A DNA stretch of 63,998 nt, filler included, from Sandaracinaceae bacterium (GTDB taxonomy: Bacteria > Myxococcota_A > Polyangia > Polyangiales > JADJQN01), in the NCBI GenBank assembly GCA_947483975.1. It is 11 parts of 11 records of this genome, joined end to end, with 100 filler letters (N's around TTAATTAATTAA, not from the genome) between each part and the next. Parts side by side here need not be neighbours in the genome. Positions count along the whole stretch, not along the records: positions 12,304 to 18,341 come from CANKOL010000318.1; positions 18,442 to 24,425 come from CANKOL010000319.1; 9 more parts are not named here. The stretch is one strand, 5' to 3'. The position numbers were made by a program. This document shows, piece after piece, positions 15,001 to 21,000 of the stretch. Every line of letters begins with the position of its first letter. The first letter of the stretch is position 1.

Positions 15001-18000
15001 GATGGACGCGCGATTCGGGCGCATTCCCGTGCTGCCGCCGGGCGAGTACTGGTCTTCACCGCGCGTCTTCTTCTGCGCCGTGAGCTTGTTGAGCATCGAG
15101 TCGAGGTTGCCCGCCGTGATGCCGACGAAGAGGCGCGGCGCGCCGAGGCGGAGCACGTCCTCCGTCGTGTCCCAGCGCGGCTGCGAGATCATGCCGACGC
15201 GGTAGCCGCGCCCCGTGAGAAAGCGCCCGATCAGCGCCGCGCCGAACGCCGGGTGATCGACGTAGGCGTCGCCGTTGATGAGCAAGATGTCGAGCGCGTC
15301 CCAGCCGCGCGCGCGCATCTCCTCGCGGGTCGTCGGCAGAAACGCGTGCAAATCACGCAGAGGCGCGCTCATTCGCCGAGCCACTCGCAGCCGCAGCCGG
15401 ACGCGGAGCCCTGACAGGCGTGCATCGACGGGCACGCCATCGTGCTCGACAGACACGGCACCTCAGGGCGGCGCGCGCCGTCGGCGTGCTCGACGCAGCG
15501 CGTCCCGGCGTCGCAGTCGCGGTCCACTCGGCACGTCGCGTCCGCGGCGCCGGTGCAGAGGCAAGTGCTCCCGACGGGCGCTGGCGCGACGACGCCGACG
15601 GCTTCGCTGCCGCTCAGCCCATAGGATTCGTGGCAACTCGGGAGCGCGGCGAGGAGCGGGACGCTCCAGGCGAGAGTCGAAGTAGGGCGCAGCATCGCGC
15701 CAGGATGCGCTGTCGCGCGGCAACGCTCAACGCCCCCCGGACGGGCGCCGACGGTGCTAGCGTGCGCGCCCCTCTGCGCGGCCCGCGCCTCGCCTGAACC
15801 GTCGAATGCCCCCTCACTCTCCCTACGCGCGCAAGCCCGGCGCGCTCACGCTCGACGCGCTCGAGCGACGCTTCGAGCAGCTCGCGGGCGACCATCCGCA
15901 CCTCGACGTCACGCGGCTGAAGGACGCGCTCGGCCTCAAGAGCGAGTACCTCGCGGCGCGCATGGTCGCGGGGCTCGACACGAACGGCGACGGCGTCGTC
16001 AGCCGCGACGAGTTCCTCGAGGGCGTCCGCGCGCTCGTCTACGGCACGGACCGCGATCGGCTGAGGTTCGCGTTTCGCCTGCACGATCACGACGGCGACG
16101 GCTTCCTCTCGCTCGACGAGCTCGAGCGGATGATCGACATCGGGCTCGCGGAGGACTCGGTCGAAGAGCACACGACGCAGTCGCCCGAGGTCCTCGCGGC
16201 GGCGCTGTTGCGCGCGGCGGATCGGGACGGGGACGGGCGGGTGTCCTTCGCGGAGCTCGAGCAGCTCGTCAGCGCGCGCCCCGAGCTGCTGCGCGAGATG
16301 GCGCGCGCAGAGGCGCTCTGGATGGCGCCGAACCGCGACCTCCTCGCGCGGCTCTCCGCGCCCTCGAGCGCGCCCGAGGCCGTGCACCCCGCGCGGCGCT
16401 GGCTCGAGAATCACTGGCGCTCGGTCGCGTTCGTGGGGCTCTGCGCGCTCGTCAACGTCGCGCTCTTCGCGAAGGCGCTGCTCGCGTCGCCCGACGCCGG
16501 GCACACCGAGCGCCTGATGCAGCTAGGGCGCGCGACGGGCGCCGCGATGAGCTTCGACGCCGTGCTGCTCCTCGTGCCGGTGATGCGACGGCTGCTGACG
16601 CGCGTGCGCGCGAGCTGGCTCGGGCGGCTGCTGCCCGTGGACGAGGCGGTGGGCTTTCACAAGCTGCTCGGGCACACGCTCGTCGCGCTGACGCTCGCGC
16701 ACGTCGCCGCGTTCGCCATCACCTGGCACGCCGGGCACCCGGCGGGCTCGCTCACGCAGCTGTTCTTCGGGACGCAGCGCGGGCTGACCGGCACCCTGCT
16801 GCTCGCGGTGTTCGCCGTGATTTGGGTCGCTGCGCTCCGCTGGATCCGCCGCACTCAGCACTTCGAGATCTTCTACTTCACGCACTTGCTCTACGCGCCG
16901 TGGATGGTGCTGCTGATCGTGCACGCGCCGCACGTGCTCGCCTGGCTCGGGCTGCCGCTCCTCGGCTTCGGCGTCGAGCGGGTGCTGCGGCTCGTGCGCC
17001 GCGCGCGTCGGAGCGAGCTGCTGAAGCTCGAGCCGCTGCGCTCGCGCGTGACGTTGCTCGAGATCGCGCGCCCCGCGGGCTTCACGTTCTCGGCGACGGA
17101 CTACGTGTTCGTGCGCATCCCCGCGGTGGCCAAGCACGAGTGGCATCCGTTCACGCTCAGCAGCGCGCCCGAGCGCGACACGCTCACGCTGCACGTGCGC
17201 ACGCTCGGCAACTGGACGGCTGCTCTGCGCGCGCTCGCCGACGCGCGACAGGCGGAGCGCGACGACTCGCCGCTCGCCGTCTACGTCGATGGGCCCTACG
17301 GCTCGCCGAGCGCGCACGTCTTCCGGTCGCGCTTCGCGGTGTTCATCGGCGCGGGCATCGGCGTCACGCCGTTCGCGAGCGTGCTCGAGAGCCTCGTCTC
17401 CCGGGCAGAGGGCGACGAGCGCAGCGCGCTCGAGAAGGCGCACTTCTTCTGGCTCAGCCAGGACCTGCGCTCCTTCGAGTGGTTCCGCGACCTGCTCGCG
17501 GAGGTCGAGCGGCGGGATCGGCGCGGCTTGCTCGCGCTGCACCTGCACATGACCGCGGGGCGCACGGGCGCGACGGCGTTCGGGCTGGAGCTCGCGCGGG
17601 AGCTGGCGCACTCGCACGGGCACGGAGACCTCGCGACGGGCTTGCACGCGAAGACTCAGATGAGCGCCCCCGACTGGCGCGCGGAGCTCCGGGCGATCCA
17701 GCGGGCGCACGCGCCGCACGAGGTCGACGTCTACTTCTGCGGGCCGCACGGGCTCGGCGTGAAGCTCCGGCGCCTCTGCGCCGAGCTGAAGCTGTCGTTT
17801 CGCGAGGAGCAGTTCTGATGGCGCGAACGGAGCAGTTCGAGCGAGTCGAGCGCGGGAGTCGCCAGCTCCCGAGCGCGCTGTCGAGCGCGGGAGTCTACGC
17901 GAGCCTCTGCGCGGCGTTCCTTTCGCTGAGCGCGTGCTCGGATACGCACGCTGGCGCGGACGTGGACGGCGGCTCGGGGGCGTGCGCGACGTGCCATATG

Positions 18001-21000
18001 CCCGAGTATTTGGGCGCGCGGCGCCACGCCGGCGTGAAGCCGACGACGTGCGGTGTGTGCCATTCGCGGGAGCGCTGGACACCGCACATCAAGCAGCACC
18101 GCTGGCCTCTGACTGGCGCGCACGCCGAGGTGGATTGCGTCAAGTGCCACACGGGCGCTGCGCCGAAGTACGAGGACACCGCGAGCGAGTGTGTGGACTG
18201 TCACCTCGACACCTTCGAGCATGAGACGTTCACGGAGCACCTCGGCTATTCGCGCGAGTGCGCCCGCTGCCACACGACGACCGCGTGGCTGCCCGCGACG
18301 TGGAACGGCCGCGCGATCGACCCCGCCGAGCACGCCGCGCGNNNNNNNNNNNNNNNNNNNNNNNNNNNNNNNNNNNNNNNNNNNNTTAATTAATTAANNN
18401 NNNNNNNNNNNNNNNNNNNNNNNNNNNNNNNNNNNNNNNNNGAGCGCGCTGGCAAACGAGGCCGCGCCCTTCGCCGGCACCGCCGCAGCCTTGCTCTTCG
18501 CGGGCGCCGGCTTCACGCCCGCGAGCGCCTTCGCGAACGGCGACGCGAGCCGCTCGGGGATCTTCTGCGCGGGCCGCGCGGGCGCGTCGTCCGCGTCTAC
18601 GTCGTCAACGATCCTCGGTCCGCCCTGCGTCGTCGGCTTGCTCTTCTTGCGGGTCACCCGAGCACCGTATCAAGCGCACGGGAGCGACGCACGCGCCGTC
18701 ACGCGCTCCCGGCGCTCGTCGAACAGCGCGCCGCGCGCGCGCCCACCTCAGCGCCCGCGCAGGATCGTGCCGCGATCGCCGACGATCCACACGTTCGCCG
18801 CGTCGATGCCGTCGACCGCGTGCAGCGTCTCCGTCGTCCCGGTGTCCTGCCGCGTCCAGCGCGTGCCGTCGTACTTGATGACCGTGCCGCCCTCGCCGAC
18901 GGCCCAGATCGCGTCCGACGAGGCGGCCCAGACGTCCTCGAGCGCGCCAGTCCCCGCCGGCGCGGCCTCGTTCGTCCAGGTGATCACGGGAGTCGGCCCC
19001 TCGAAGTAGTCGGGCTGATGATCGTAGTGACAGCGCACGATCATCGGCGCCCCCGCCATCGTCGAGCCGACCGCGACCGCCTCGAACGACGCCTCGTTCA
19101 CGGTGTCCGTGTCGAGATTGTCGTACTCGGTCTGAAAGACCGTCACGCCGTGATAGTCAGTCGTCGAGCCGCCCATATCCCACGCTCGAGTGAACGCGCC
19201 GCTCTGCCCATAGAGCACTCGCCCGACGTTGCGCGCGATGAAGACGTTGGCGTCGTCGAAGCCCGCGATCCCATAGAAATTGCCTAGTTCTGACGTCTCG
19301 ATGGTCCACGCGGTGCCGTCGAAGCGCGCGATTCTACCGCTCGAAGACACGGCCCAAGCGATGGTGGATGGAGTCCACGCGTCGATGATGCGAGTCGGGT
19401 CCGCGCTCGCCGAGCGCGCCTCGGGGACCCACATCCCCTGCCAAGTCTGCGAGGTGCCGACCGTGGACTGCGTCCAGCGATATCCGTCGTACGAGAGCAT
19501 CAGGCTCGACGCGCCGCCGACCCAAACGTGCTGTCGATCCGTCCCGCCGACGCTGAAGAACGTGCGCCCCGTCGTCGGCAGAGACTCCATGGCGAACGCG
19601 ACTCCGTCCCAGGAGAGCACCGCGTTGACGGGCCCGACGACGTAGACGCGCGTCGCGTCCGCGACCCACACATCGTTGAACTTCCGCGTGACCGCCAGCG
19701 ACGGCGGCGTGACGGGCTCCCACGTCGCGACGGGCAAGCCCGCGCTGCAATCCACCGCGAGGTACGCCACCGGCCCGGCCGCGACGCCGTGTCCGCCGGA
19801 CACCGTGCACGTCAGTCCCGCAGGCTGCGCGGTGACGTCCACCGAATACGCGCTCGCCGCGGCGAGCAGCGTCGTGAACGTGAACGGGCCATTCGCGCTC
19901 AGCGTGAGCGTCTCTGCGCCGTTGAGCGTCACGCCGACGGAGCCTCCCGTCAGCCCCGTGACGCGCCCGCCGATCGGATACGGCCCCGGCCCGGCGTCCG
20001 GGCGCTCGCCCGCGTCGTCGCCTCCGCCCCCGCCTCCATCGACGACCGCGCCATCGCGCGGCGCCGGGCCCGCGTCGCGCTCGAACTCCCCGCTCGCGCA
20101 GACGGGGCGCCCGCTCGCGTCACCGCACGAGAGCCCCGCGAGGCAGTCGAGCACCGAGGTGCATGGCGCGCCGAGGTCCCCGCCGCCCGCGTTCGCGCAC
20201 TCGAGCCCACCGCTGGCGCTCGCGCAGACGAGGCCCATCGCGCAGTCCGCGGACGACTCACACGGATCGTGCGCGCCGCCCGTGCCCTCGGGCTCACAGA
20301 CGCGCGCCGGGCTGCAATAGAGCCCTCCCGCGCACTCCGCGCTCAGCTGACACGAGTCGCCGTTGAGCGAGGTGCCCGTCGGCTCACAGCTTCCCGCACG
20401 ACACGTCAGCCCGAGGCGGCAGTCGGGGTCCCCCGCGCAGACATGACCGACGCCGCCGAGCGTCTTGGCGGGGGTGCTGCCACAGCCGCTCAGCGCGAGG
20501 AGCGCGAGCGCAGAGGCGACGACGACGCGGACGCTCAGGGACGAAAAGCGCATGCGCCATGCTACTGCACGGCGCCCGCGCGGAACAGCCGTTCTCGGCG
20601 CCGCCCGCGCCTCAGAGCGCCGTGAATTGCGGCATCGACGAGAAGCGCTGCAGGTGAAAGTCCTCGTCGCCGAAGAGCGCGCCGAGCGCCTGCATGCGCT
20701 TGAAGTAGAGCCCGAGATCGTGCTCGTCCGTGACGCCGATGCCGCCGTGAAGCTGCGTGCCCTCGCGCACGACGAAGTGCCCGCTCGAGGTCAGCTGCGC
20801 CTTCGCCTTCGAGATCTCGTACGCGCGCTCGTCGGCGGGCGCCGTCGTCTTGATCGAGGCGAGGATGCTCGTCGACTTCGCGAGCTCCGTCTCGATGAAC
20901 ATATCGACCGCGCGGTGCTGAAGCGCCTGAAAAGTCCCGATCTTCACGCCGAATTGCTCGCGCGTGCGGAGGTACTCGACGGTCATCCAGAGCACGGTGC

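What a model noticed while it worked through the whole genome (the two positions that open the first line are those of the whole stretch)
15806..18339. EF-hand NOX5-type NADPH oxidase homologue in a widely conserved operon with a periplasmic multihaem cytochrome c
g03823 (C318 3503-5515, 670 aa) has the full domain order of animal NOX5 (EF-hands, ferric-reductase haem domain, FAD- and NADPH-binding domains; 29% identity to human NOX5) and its stop overlaps the start of g03824, a lipoprotein-type c cytochrome with five CxxCH motifs before the contig ends; the same pair stands in 23 of 23 best-matching Polyangiales loci and in 5 of 9 loci of a second, more mixed sample. I read the pair as a calcium-gated transmembrane wire that carries electrons from cytoplasmic NADPH through the b haems to a periplasmic multihaem cytochrome, not (only) to O2. 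New would be a non-ROS, electron-export role for a NOX5-type enzyme, a candidate ancestral function of the NOX [...]
Evidence so far: Pfam rows: EF-hand_7 res 84-155 plus weaker EF-hand hits, Ferric_reduct 263-370, FAD_binding_8 406-502, NAD_binding_6 512-659; g03824 Cytochrome_C7 res 69-129, lipobox LSLSAC, motifs CATCH, CGVCH, CVKCH, CVDCH, CARCH. Best Swiss-Prot hit human NOX5, E 2e-89. 47 of 251 Polyangiales genomes have a homologue at E<=1e-40. tblastn on the 23 best loci of other genomes: 23 of 23 have a homologue of g03824 (37-57% identity) starting 60-140 nt after the NOX gene on the same strand, with 5 to 8 CxxCH in the downstream frame; upstream gene g03822 kept in 0 of 23. In one relative the cytochrome is about 260 aa: lipobox, five CxxCH, Pro-rich tail. 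Second sample: 13 loci, 9 with whole gene and downstream [...]
(Added by a program. Inside this text positions count along the whole contig: they may not be those of the stretch shown here. "Call 12" and the like, gene names such as g00115 and contig names such as C1 are that model's own, and its searches are not shown. The text may have been shortened before it was handed on; [...] marks where a part breaks off. The agent that wrote the report below was given it as the finding of a first reader that could run no searches.)

Follow-up and report, generated by a model that had tools for sequence, protein, structure and literature searches.

The report
NOX5-type oxidase wired to multihaem cytochrome
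A myxobacterial relative of the calcium-activated human enzyme NOX5 has lost a histidine of its oxygen-reducing site and is always encoded together with a periplasmic five-haem cytochrome, which suggests that it hands electrons to a protein partner and not to oxygen.

Summary
Window 15806-17818 (+) encodes a 670-aa NOX5-type enzyme with three canonical EF-hand loops, a di-haem ferric-reductase membrane domain, and FAD and NADPH domains. Its stop overlaps the start of a lipoprotein c-type cytochrome with five CxxCH, cut by the contig end.

The pair is kept in every close orthologue that has downstream DNA: 28 of 28 and 51 of 51 loci in two overlapping samples. Flanking genes are not kept.

New here:
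- The histidine four residues after the outer-haem ligand, part of the O2-reducing centre (human DUOX1 H1148, NOX2 H119), is Phe303 in the window. It is never His in the cytochrome-linked clade. It is His in 94 of 100 family representatives.
- That clade has an invariant Gly-His in outer loop C.
- Relatives of the cytochrome that lack a NOX gene lie beside a DUF4405-type membrane b cytochrome and an NAD(P)H flavoprotein, an analogous module.

Best reading, about 0.55: calcium-gated export of NADPH electrons to the cytochrome, with O2 reduction impaired. Nothing is shown biochemically, and the final acceptor is unknown.

All these traits map to one clade, so this is one evolutionary event. The clade is nested among His-bearing, cytochrome-less NOX5-like enzymes, so the coupling is derived and not ancestral. 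It is a new variant of a known kind.

The parts
15806..17818 (+). NOX5-type NADPH oxidase homologue, 670 aa
   Evidence: ORF and translation. Pfam domains. Human NOX5 6sz5 at E 1.9e-101.
15977..16255 (+). Three canonical EF-hand loops: D58-E69, D94-E105 and D139-E150
   Evidence: Loops DTNGDGVVSRDE, DHDGDGFLSLDE and DRDGDGRVSFAE read. EF-hand Pfam hits. D58, G63, D94 and G99 are invariant, and D62, D96, D98, E105, D139, D143, G144 and E150 are at least 90% kept, in 30 orthologues.
16397..16990 (+). Six-helix ferric-reductase (di-haem b) membrane domain. Haem ligands H285, H299, H360 and H373; Arg261 kept.
   Evidence: Aligned to the csNOX5 membrane domain 5o0t at E 5e-36. The four His and R261 are invariant in 30 orthologues.
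16712..16714 (+). Phe303, at the place of the O2-reducing-centre histidine (hDUOX1 H1148, NOX2 H119)
   Evidence: Alignments to human NOX5, DUOX1 and csNOX5. Role of the residue taken from passages of PMC7794343, PMC9568551 and PMC11564096. Never His in the 31 sequences of the linked clade (30 cytochrome-linked plus L031, whose locus is cut).
16733..16738 (+). Gly310-His311 in periplasmic loop C, specific to the cytochrome-linked clade
   Evidence: Invariant in 30 of 30. H311 is present in 31 of 31 sequences of the linked clade (30 linked plus the cut L031) and is not kept in the 19 unlinked ones. 54 of 54 in the named sample.
17021..17815 (+). FAD- and NADPH-binding dehydrogenase domain with terminal Phe670
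   Evidence: FAD_binding_8 and NAD_binding_6. csNOX5 dehydrogenase domain 5o0x at E 1.3e-70. F670 is invariant.
17816..17820 (+). TGATG stop/start overlap between the two genes
   Evidence: Sequence. In 30 pairs the distance between stop and chosen start is -17 to +5 nt.
17818..18341 (+). Multihaem c-type cytochrome gene, 3' end missing at the contig end
   Evidence: Translation. Cytochrome_C7. Full-length relatives are 141-296 aa. Contigs of other runs continue past this end.
17818..17937 (+). Signal peptide with lipobox LSAC; the lipid-anchor Cys is residue 40
   Evidence: A Cys at this place is kept in at least 90% of 30 relatives.
17983..18273 (+). Five-haem domain: five CxxCH plus four conserved non-motif histidines
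   Evidence: All five motifs are invariant in 55 of 55 domains. The further His are kept in 52, 55, 55 and 47 of 55.

Best explanation
The two genes form one translationally coupled unit that works as a calcium-gated electron exporter.

Proposed mechanism: cytoplasmic NADPH reduces FAD in the dehydrogenase domain. Electrons cross the inner membrane through the two b haems of the ferric-reductase domain. From the outer haem they pass to the five-haem domain of a lipid-anchored periplasmic cytochrome c, and not, or only poorly, to O2. The N-terminal EF-hands switch the enzyme on when cytoplasmic Ca2+ rises, as in NOX5.

Shown by sequence:
- the domain order, the haem ligands and the EF-hand loops;
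- the signal peptide, lipobox and haem motifs of the cytochrome;
- the overlap and strict co-occurrence of the two genes;
- the loss of one histidine of the O2-reducing centre, and a new invariant Gly-His in outer loop C.

Inferred: the topology (by homology to solved NOX structures), direct haem-to-haem transfer, impaired O2 reduction, and the calcium control.

Unknown: what the cytochrome reduces. Candidates are ferric iron or chelates, other periplasmic or outer-membrane redox proteins, or O2 at a c haem. The role of the long Pro-rich tail found in most relatives is also unknown.
For: 1. Gene coupling. The stop and start overlap. The distance is -17 to +5 nt in 30 pairs. The cytochrome is present downstream in 28 of 28 loci and in 51 of 51 named loci with enough downstream DNA. 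Flanking genes are not shared.

2. O2 centre.
- Window F303 aligns with the His of human NOX5, csNOX5 and hDUOX1 H1148.
- Passages of PMC7794343 say that csNOX5 mutants at this His and at the Arg affected reoxidation of the reduced membrane domain by O2.
- PMC9568551 and PMC11564096 describe the centre as two His, one Arg and a haem propionate.
- The position is His in 94 of 100 family representatives and in 14 of 19 cytochrome-less relatives. It is His in 0 of the 31 sequences of the linked clade, that is 30 cytochrome-linked plus L031, whose locus is cut.
- In the named sample, none of the 21 His-bearing loci has the cytochrome; 18 of them had room for it.

3. G310-H311 in loop C is invariant in the linked clade only.

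4. On trees built without these columns, the cytochrome and GH each need one change. The linked rows form one clade with SH-aLRT 99 and 96.

5. The cytochrome has a lipoprotein signal, and its five-haem domain starts about 13-30 residues after the lipid Cys. If it is retained in the inner membrane, it would sit at the face where the NOX outer haem lies.

6. Independent context.
- The same five-haem domain (E about 1e-43) occurs in genomes without NOX. There it lies in clusters with a DUF4405-type membrane protein (7 of 8 loci) and a 4Fe-4S plus pyridine-nucleotide flavoprotein (6 of 8 loci).
- DUF4405 was shown to bind haem b and proposed to carry electrons across the membrane (PMC11334425, passages).

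7. Precedent. SpNOX reduces cytochrome c directly under anoxia, and its authors suggest that a protein acceptor may exist (PMC11564096, passages).
Against: - There is no biochemical or structural evidence.
- All correlated traits (cytochrome, loss of His, GH) arose on one branch, so this is a single evolutionary event and not a repeated association.
- The sister clade also lacks the His in 4 of 5 rows and has no cytochrome.
- An independent His-less NOX of the Chitinimonas type has no cytochrome next to it.
- Arg261 of the O2 centre is kept, and the new loop-C His could rebuild an O2 site.
- The residue after the lipid Cys is mostly S, A, G or T. Inner-membrane retention signals recalled from E. 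coli (Asp) and Myxococcus (Lys) are mostly absent, so the cytochrome may be sorted to the outer membrane, away from the NOX.
- No conserved further partner or terminal reductase lies nearby.
- All carriers of the pair are uncultured MAGs.
Confidence: 0.55

Rival explanations
1. The enzyme is still an O2-reducing, ROS-forming NOX5 whose O2 site is remodelled, with loop-C His311 replacing the lost helix His. The cytochrome then acts after ROS formation. It could take electrons back from superoxide, detoxify it in the periplasm, or serve as a second acceptor beside O2.
For: - Arg261 and all four haem ligands are kept.
- H311 is invariant and lies only 8 residues after the lost position.
- Some other His-less family members also carry a Gly-His in loop C: P0004, P0018 and P0106.
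- Cytochrome c is a classical superoxide trap, which is the basis of the assay described in PMC11564096.
- SpNOX lacks the canonical centre yet consumes O2.
Against: - The canonical His is kept in 94 of 100 representatives, including all eukaryote-length forms, which argues that it matters for O2 reduction.
- A scavenger would not need strict translational coupling with one oxidase.
- NOX-less relatives of the cytochrome sit in electron-transfer clusters, not in ROS-defence clusters.
Confidence: 0.25
2. The pair is a periplasmic ROS generator. Electrons do go from the NOX to the cytochrome, but the cytochrome itself reduces O2 (or another small oxidant) at one of its c haems. This would give a calcium-triggered oxidative burst used in predation or defence, comparable to DUOX with its extracellular haem domain.
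For: - Only four conserved non-motif histidines are found for five haems, so one haem may lack a protein distal ligand.
- The family function is ROS production.
- By their record titles, the carriers belong to myxobacterial groups. That cultured relatives of these groups are predators is recalled, not tested here.
Against: - The fifth ligand may come from the 3-haem domain, from a less conserved residue or from a partner.
- NOX-less relatives have the same His pattern in what look like plain electron-transfer clusters.
- No peroxidase, SOD or other ROS gene is conserved nearby.
Confidence: 0.15
3. The two genes are merely co-transcribed neighbours without a shared electron path.
For: Neighbouring genes alone are weak evidence, and there is no direct evidence of contact.
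Against: The adjacency and overlap are kept through about 47-66% NOX identity while all other neighbours change. Site changes on the periplasmic face of the NOX coincide with the cytochrome.
Confidence: 0.05

Closest known systems
NOX5 (human; Cylindrospermum stagnale csNOX5)
   Same: Same domain order: EF-hands, a six-helix di-haem domain, FAD and NADPH domains. It shares the four haem-ligand His, the Arg of the O2 centre and the C-terminal Phe. E 1.9e-101 to human NOX5.
   Different: The second His of the O2-reducing centre is Phe. There is a new invariant Gly-His in loop C, and an obligatory downstream multihaem cytochrome gene. The 6 cyanobacterial (Microcoleus, Drouetiella and related) NOX5-like loci examined keep the His and have no cytochrome.
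SpNOX (Streptococcus pneumoniae NOX)
   Same: A bacterial NOX that lacks the canonical O2 centre. It reduces cytochrome c directly in vitro, and its authors propose an unknown protein acceptor (PMC11564096, passages).
   Different: SpNOX has no EF-hands, is constitutively active, is only distantly related and has no named partner. Here a candidate partner is encoded in the same operon.
MsrQ-MsrP (YedZ-YedY)
   Same: A ferric-reductase-domain membrane b cytochrome that hands electrons to a periplasmic protein partner (as summarised in PMC11564096).
   Different: MsrQ has no fused NADPH dehydrogenase domain and draws on quinol. Its partner is a molybdoenzyme, not a cytochrome c.
DUF4405 b-cytochrome plus NAD(P)H flavoprotein plus multihaem cytochrome clusters in related genomes
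   Same: They contain the same five-haem cytochrome domain (E about 1e-43) next to a membrane b cytochrome and a cytoplasmic pyridine-nucleotide flavoprotein. This is the same logical chain, built from separate proteins.
   Different: The input module is unrelated in sequence to NOX. Those clusters also hold 10- and 23-haem cytochromes and a 557-aa protein that the NOX pair lacks. They have no calcium sensor.
DUOX1/2
   Same: A calcium-regulated NOX with a haem-type protein domain seated on the outer face above the outer haem (PMC7794343).
   Different: In DUOX that domain is fused, is peroxidase-like and does not replace O2 as acceptor, and the His of the O2 centre is kept.

Membership tests
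NOX family, NOX5 subtype | N-terminal EF-hand calcium-binding domain | tested here: met
   EF-hand_7, EF-hand_1, EF-hand_6, EF-hand_5 and EF-hand_8 all score above their cut-offs. Three canonical 12-residue loops are present and conserved in 30 orthologues. Calcium binding itself was not tested.
NOX family, NOX5 subtype | Six-helix ferric-reductase domain with four His ligating two b haems | tested here: met
   Ferric_reduct 263-370. 5o0t at E 5e-36. H285, H299, H360 and H373 are invariant.
NOX family, NOX5 subtype | C-terminal FAD- and NADPH-binding dehydrogenase domain | tested here: met
   FAD_binding_8 and NAD_binding_6. 5o0x at E 1.3e-70.
NOX family, NOX5 subtype | O2-reducing centre: outer-haem His, a second His four residues on, an Arg on helix 2, and a haem propionate | tested here: not met
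   Arg261 and H299 are present, but the second His is Phe303. It is never His in the 31 sequences of the linked clade.
NOX family, NOX5 subtype | Superoxide production from NADPH and O2, activated by Ca2+ | not testable with these tools
   This needs an enzyme assay.
Multihaem c-type cytochromes of the c7/c3 class | Several CxxCH motifs with His distal ligands in a small domain, exported to the periplasm | tested here: met
   Five CxxCH. Cytochrome_C7 scores 41.1 bits against a cut-off of 24.8. Signal peptide and lipobox are present. Only four conserved distal His for five haems.
Bacterial lipoproteins | Signal peptide ending in a lipobox with an invariant Cys | tested here: met
   LSAC in the window. 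A lipobox pattern was found in 24 of 30 relatives. Five of the other six have a Cys after the hydrophobic stretch, and L026 has none. The membrane of residence is not predictable here.
MsrQ/YedZ-type systems with a periplasmic protein acceptor | Physical electron transfer from the outer haem to a partner protein | tested here: inconclusive
   Only genomic linkage is available. The complex prediction gave no verdict.

The most novel reading that the evidence does not exclude
This would be the first NOX-family enzyme with a dedicated, genetically hard-wired protein acceptor. In this reading a Ca2+-switched NOX5 has given up O2 reduction (His to Phe at the reducing centre). It docks a lipid-anchored five-haem cytochrome through a new loop-C Gly-His, which may even supply the missing sixth ligand of one c haem. 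Cytoplasmic NADPH would then become a calcium-triggered supply of periplasmic reducing power.
Probability: 0.4. Interest if true: 0.85.

Novelty: new variant of a known kind. Interest (0 to 1): 0.72.

Why it matters
NOX enzymes are defined as dedicated ROS producers. The structure paper on SpNOX left open whether O2 is the physiological acceptor of bacterial NOX homologues and whether a protein acceptor exists (PMC11564096, passages).

This clade offers a concrete and testable candidate pair: a NOX5-type enzyme with a natural mutation in the O2 centre and a cognate cytochrome in the same operon.

It also bears on where NOX5 occurs. Passages of PMC9421330 and PMC5676040 treat bacterial NOX5 as a few cyanobacterial sequences acquired from eukaryotes. 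Here 313 stretches in one genome per species encode relatives, and 51 of 301 genomes of one myxobacterial order carry one.

I found no paper that links NOX5 to Myxococcota or to a cytochrome c partner. The library lacks most subscription journals.

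Tried and rejected
- Complex prediction of the NOX membrane domain (residues 185-402) with the cytochrome (residues 41-174) and two haems: no verdict, score 0.00. 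This is evidence neither way.
- AlphaFold2 model of the cytochrome from 30 sequences: mean pLDDT 53. That is too poor for a fold search, so none was run.
- Profile search of the cytochrome against solved structures: only short motif-level matches. The best is NrfH at E 3e-4, and zinc fingers appear among the hits.
- NCBIfam gave no specific family for either protein.
- RNA evidence: no RNA holder was listed among the public runs.
- The csNOX5 structure paper (Magnani et al. 2017) was recalled from memory and sought under a PMC id that I also recalled. No paper is held under that id. Its mutagenesis result is therefore cited second-hand from PMC7794343.
- A natural NOX-cytochrome fusion seemed to appear in L128 (889 aa). 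It is a frameshift near the NOX 3' end that runs into the cytochrome frame, not a fusion.
- An FMN-accepting partner in the sister clade: ApbE lies downstream of the NOX in L060 and L064, but the small ORF between them shows no flavinylation motif that I could recognise.
- A general rule 'His lost means cytochrome partner' is rejected. The sister clade and a Chitinimonas-type NOX lack both.
- My first two gene callers missed genes, and some cytochromes were first missed by a coordinate filter. Both were corrected.

Full report
**What is in the window.** The window is a chain of contigs of one metagenome-assembled genome (G000: 524 contigs, 81% complete). The contigs are separated by N runs with a TTAATTAATTAA spacer. 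On contig C318 an ATG-started ORF at 15806-17818 (+) gives a 670-aa protein. Pfam finds EF-hand families (EF-hand_7 at 84-155), Ferric_reduct 263-370, FAD_binding_8 406-502 and NAD_binding_6 512-659, all above their cut-offs. The best solved relatives are human NOX5 (6sz5, E 1.9e-101), DUOX1 (E 9e-73), and the dehydrogenase and membrane domains of Cylindrospermum NOX5 (5o0x at E 1.3e-70; 5o0t at E 4.8e-35, or 5e-36 when the membrane domain is searched alone). Three 12-residue loops, D58-E69, D94-E105 and D139-E150, have the canonical EF-hand pattern.

The TGA at 17816-17818 shares its A with the ATG of a second ORF. That ORF runs to the contig's last bases. It encodes a signal peptide ending in the lipobox LSAC, followed by five CxxCH motifs (Cytochrome_C7 at E 1.6e-10).

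**The pairing.**
- A search of 301 genomes of the same order finds a NOX5-like gene in 51 of them, counting G000 (37 of 226 high-quality genomes), at E<=1e-30.
- In the 29 best loci of other genomes, tblastn finds a homologue of the cytochrome directly downstream on the same strand in 28. In the 29th the NOX gene itself is cut by the contig end.
- I also fetched wider stretches, which gave 50 distinct NOX ORFs. Thirty of them have a downstream frame with 5 (21 loci) or 8 (9 loci) CxxCH. One is cut. The other 19, at 30-55% identity to the window protein, have no ORF with three or more CxxCH anywhere in the DNA fetched, up to 7 kb on each side.
- The chosen cytochrome start lies -17 to +5 nt from the NOX stop in all 30 pairs.
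- Apart from these two genes, no predicted protein of the window's contig has a homologue in any of the other 35 loci. No other neighbour is shared across the pair-bearing loci either.
- A second sample overlaps the first, because both draw on species-representative genomes: 80 named loci from one genome per species. It gives the same picture.
- In that scan 313 stretches encode relatives. The carriers of the pair are all MAGs. Their titles read Polyangiaceae, Polyangiales, Sandaracinaceae, Sandaracinus, Labilithrix, Byssovorax, 'Myxococcales', or broader labels such as 'delta proteobacterium'.
- Contigs from four other lake or freshwater runs cover the junction without indels, and several continue past the end of the window's contig.

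**A change in the O2-reducing centre.** Solved NOX structures place O2 reduction at a pocket formed by four elements: the outer-haem ligand His on helix 3, a second His four residues further on, an Arg on helix 2, and a haem propionate. I read this in passages only:
- PMC9568551 names NOX2 His115, His119 and Arg54.
- PMC7794343 names hDUOX1 H1144, H1148 and R1087. It states that csNOX5 mutants at the equivalent Arg and His affected reoxidation of the reduced membrane domain by O2.
- PMC11564096 gives the general statement.

In the HMMER alignments the window's H299 pairs with hDUOX1 H1144. The window's F303 pairs with H1148 and with the corresponding His of human NOX5 and csNOX5.

Counts at this position:
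- Among the 31 sequences of the linked clade (30 cytochrome-linked plus L031, whose locus is cut) the position is F in 20, L in 3, I in 3, Y in 2, and A, T and V once each. It is never His.
- Among the 19 unlinked sequences it is His in 14, R in 2, A in 2 and Y in 1.
- Of the best 150 representatives from a search of 1.84 billion proteins, I examined the 100 that are 600-1200 aa long; the other 50 were dropped. The position is His in 94 of the 100. The exceptions are P0003 (F), P0004 (V), P0018 (Y), P0031 (Y), P0106 (Q) and one poorly aligned row.

The Arg (R261) and the four haem ligands are invariant in the linked clade. So is a Gly310-His311 pair in the periplasmic loop after helix 3, which the unlinked sequences do not keep.

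Tally of the 80 named loci:

| Group | Loci | Downstream cytochrome |
|---|---|---|
| No His, with Gly-His | 54 | 51 have an ORF with at least 5 CxxCH; 2 show a cut beginning; 1 has no downstream DNA |
| With His | 21 | None; 18 had at least 600 nt of room |
| No His, no Gly-His | 4 | None |
| Partial NOX gene, columns missing | 1 | Present |

One of the 51, L128, was counted by hand. A frameshift makes the NOX frame run into the cytochrome.

**How many events.**
- I built trees from the membrane and dehydrogenase domains with the trait columns removed (IQ-TREE quick search, LG+G4, SH-aLRT support only).
- They put all cytochrome-linked rows in one clade. In the first tree it has 32 of 105 rows with support 99. 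In the second it has 54 of 103 rows with support 96.
- The presence of the cytochrome and the Gly-His each need one change; the His needs two.
- The sister group has 5 rows, of which 4 lack the His, and it has no cytochrome.
- The association, though perfect, therefore rests on a single ancestral event that has been retained through divergence down to about 46% identity. It is not repeated evolution.
- An independent His-less NOX of the Chitinimonas type (P0106; names) has no cytochrome beside it.
- The linked clade is nested among His-bearing, cytochrome-less NOX5-like clades of Myxococcota and cyanobacteria. Unless the root lies inside the linked clade, the coupling is derived. The tree does not infer the root.

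**The cytochrome.**
- Full-length relatives are 141-296 aa. They start with a lipoprotein signal: a lipobox pattern was found in 24 of 30, a Cys follows the hydrophobic stretch in five of the remaining six, and L026 has none.
- About 13-30 residues after the lipid Cys comes a five-haem domain of about 120 residues.
- In 26 of 30 a Pro/Thr/Lys-rich low-complexity stretch of some 50-110 residues follows. It includes KPKPKP runs in L005 and L010.
- The protein then ends in one of two ways. One is a short conserved end, P-D-x-x-T-G-A-S-R-R. The other is a further three-haem domain that begins HPExRFPI.
- MAFFT aligns the short end with the start of the three-haem domain. The five-haem forms therefore look like truncated eight-haem forms (inference).
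- In 55 distinct domains the five motifs are invariant, and four further His are kept (52, 55, 55 and 47 of 55). No conserved Met is present, so the distal ligand of one haem is unassigned.
- The window's contig ends just where relatives begin the low-complexity stretch. This may be why the assembly broke there (inference).

**Independent context for the cytochrome family.**
- A profile of the cytochrome matches 93 of 301 genomes of the order at E<=1e-8. Many of them have no NOX5-like gene.
- I fetched eight such loci. The matching proteins carry the same five-haem domain (E about 1e-43), followed directly by the three-haem domain without a Pro-rich insert.
- A homologue of a DUF4405/cytochrome-b561-like membrane protein is present in 7 of the 8 loci. 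A protein with 4Fe-4S and pyridine-nucleotide-disulphide oxidoreductase domains is present in 6 of 8.
- Cytochromes with 10 and 23 haems and a 557-aa protein without a Pfam match also occur there. My crude gene caller failed on the eighth locus, L072.
- DUF4405 has been shown to bind haem b and has been proposed as a transmembrane electron carrier (PMC11334425, passages).
- The cytochrome family therefore habitually sits next to a chain made of an NAD(P)H flavoprotein and a membrane b cytochrome. NOX provides exactly that chain in one polypeptide. This is the strongest argument for the export reading that does not depend on the single NOX clade.

**Mechanism, and what is not known.** I read the pair as a calcium-gated NADPH:cytochrome c electron exporter, with confidence about 0.55. 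The topology, with EF-hands and dehydrogenase domain inside and the outer haem at the periplasmic face, follows from homology to solved NOX structures. The transfer to the cytochrome, the weakening of O2 reduction and the calcium control are all inferred.

Points against, or still open:
- Arg261 is kept, and His311 could rebuild an O2 site.
- The residue after the lipid Cys does not match the inner-membrane retention rules that I recall for E. coli or Myxococcus. The cytochrome might therefore sit on the outer membrane.
- The role of the Pro-rich tail and its conserved end is unexplained.
- No terminal acceptor is encoded nearby.

Rivals: the enzyme is still a ROS-forming NOX and the cytochrome acts after ROS formation (0.25). 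Electrons reach the cytochrome, which itself reduces O2 (0.15; this differs from the best reading only in the final acceptor). The two genes are unrelated neighbours (0.05).

**Comparison with what is known.** The protein is a member of the NOX family by architecture and haem ligands, and public pipelines already name close relatives 'NADPH oxidase 5' or 'ferric reductase-like'. It fails one defining feature of the O2-reducing NOX enzymes, the second His of the reducing centre.
- SpNOX also lacks that centre and reduces cytochrome c directly in vitro. Its authors wrote that a protein acceptor may exist and that O2 may not be the physiological acceptor. No partner was named.
- MsrQ-MsrP is the known case of a ferric-reductase-domain protein that feeds a periplasmic protein.
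- In the passages found, PMC5676040 and PMC9421330 describe bacterial NOX5 as a few cyanobacterial sequences probably acquired from eukaryotes. The string 'myxo' does not occur in either paper.
- Three full-text searches found no paper that connects NOX5 or NADPH oxidase with Myxococcota or with a cytochrome c partner. Subscription journals are largely outside that library.

**Verdict.** This is a new variant of a known kind, of high interest to NOX and bacterial electron-transfer specialists because it is directly testable.

Noticed in passing
L060:5726-7000 and L064:5590-6960: In the cytochrome-less, His-less sister clade the NOX gene is followed on the same strand by an ApbE flavin transferase gene. 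Between the two lies a convergent small ORF with an N-terminal membrane helix, a Pro-rich stretch and a basic end (RVRTRSS or RVRTRTS). That end recalls the tails of the cytochromes (GTRSRR, GASRR).
   Followed up: partly
L070, L071, L073, L074 (also L067-L069): These are conserved clusters in Polyangiales-order genomes. They contain a 4Fe-4S/pyridine-nucleotide flavoprotein, a DUF4405-like membrane b cytochrome, an 8- to 11-haem relative of the NOX-linked cytochrome, 23-haem and 10-haem cytochromes, and a 557-aa protein without a Pfam match. They look like an electron conduit across the envelope.
   Followed up: partly
L128:2471-5140: A frameshift about 30 codons before the NOX stop makes the NOX frame run into the cytochrome frame and gives an 889-aa ORF. 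The proper NOX C-terminus is in another frame. This is an assembly error or a pseudogene, not a fusion.
   Followed up: yes
rows G001:C4, G037:C2, G097:C2, G041:C16: Several NOX5-like genes in the order are split in two pieces or carry an in-frame stop (TGA or TAA). These are possible pseudogenes or assembly errors.
   Followed up: no
EF-hand NOX5-like genes are common in Myxococcota MAGs: 51 of 301 genomes of one order, and 313 relatives in a scan of one genome per species. They form several deep clades, whereas the papers read treat bacterial NOX5 as a few cyanobacterial sequences. In the tree the long forms (694-1171 aa), which I take to be eukaryotic only from their length, form one clade nested among forms of 630-690 aa.
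   Followed up: partly
L005, L010 and most full-length cytochromes: There is a Pro/Thr/Lys-rich linker of about 50-110 residues, with KPKPKP runs like the spacer of TonB (recalled). It lies between the five-haem domain and either a three-haem domain or a conserved C-terminal decapeptide. NOX-less relatives of the cytochrome lack this insert.
   Followed up: partly
window 12204-12303 and 18342-18422: N runs with a TTAATTAATTAA spacer mark the joins between contigs. The window is a concatenation, so genes on either side of them are not neighbours in the genome.
   Followed up: yes
window 13339-15348 (-) and 12305-12997 (+): On the opposite strand, upstream of the NOX gene, lies a radical SAM protein (Radical_SAM_N, Radical_SAM, DUF3362). 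At the contig start there is an SbcC/Rad50 Walker-B fragment. Neither recurs next to NOX in other genomes.
   Followed up: yes
window residues H290 and G241 of the NOX (16673-16675, 16526-16528): Two further positions in the membrane domain separate the linked clade from the rest: His290 in helix 3 between the two haem ligands (27 of 31) and Gly241 (28 of 31, against Ala in 16 of 19 unlinked). Their meaning is unknown.
   Followed up: no
Near-identical DNA occurs in lake-water and freshwater metagenomes. Ten runs from four studies hold half or more of the sampled words, and two of those runs may be the source sample.
   Followed up: partly
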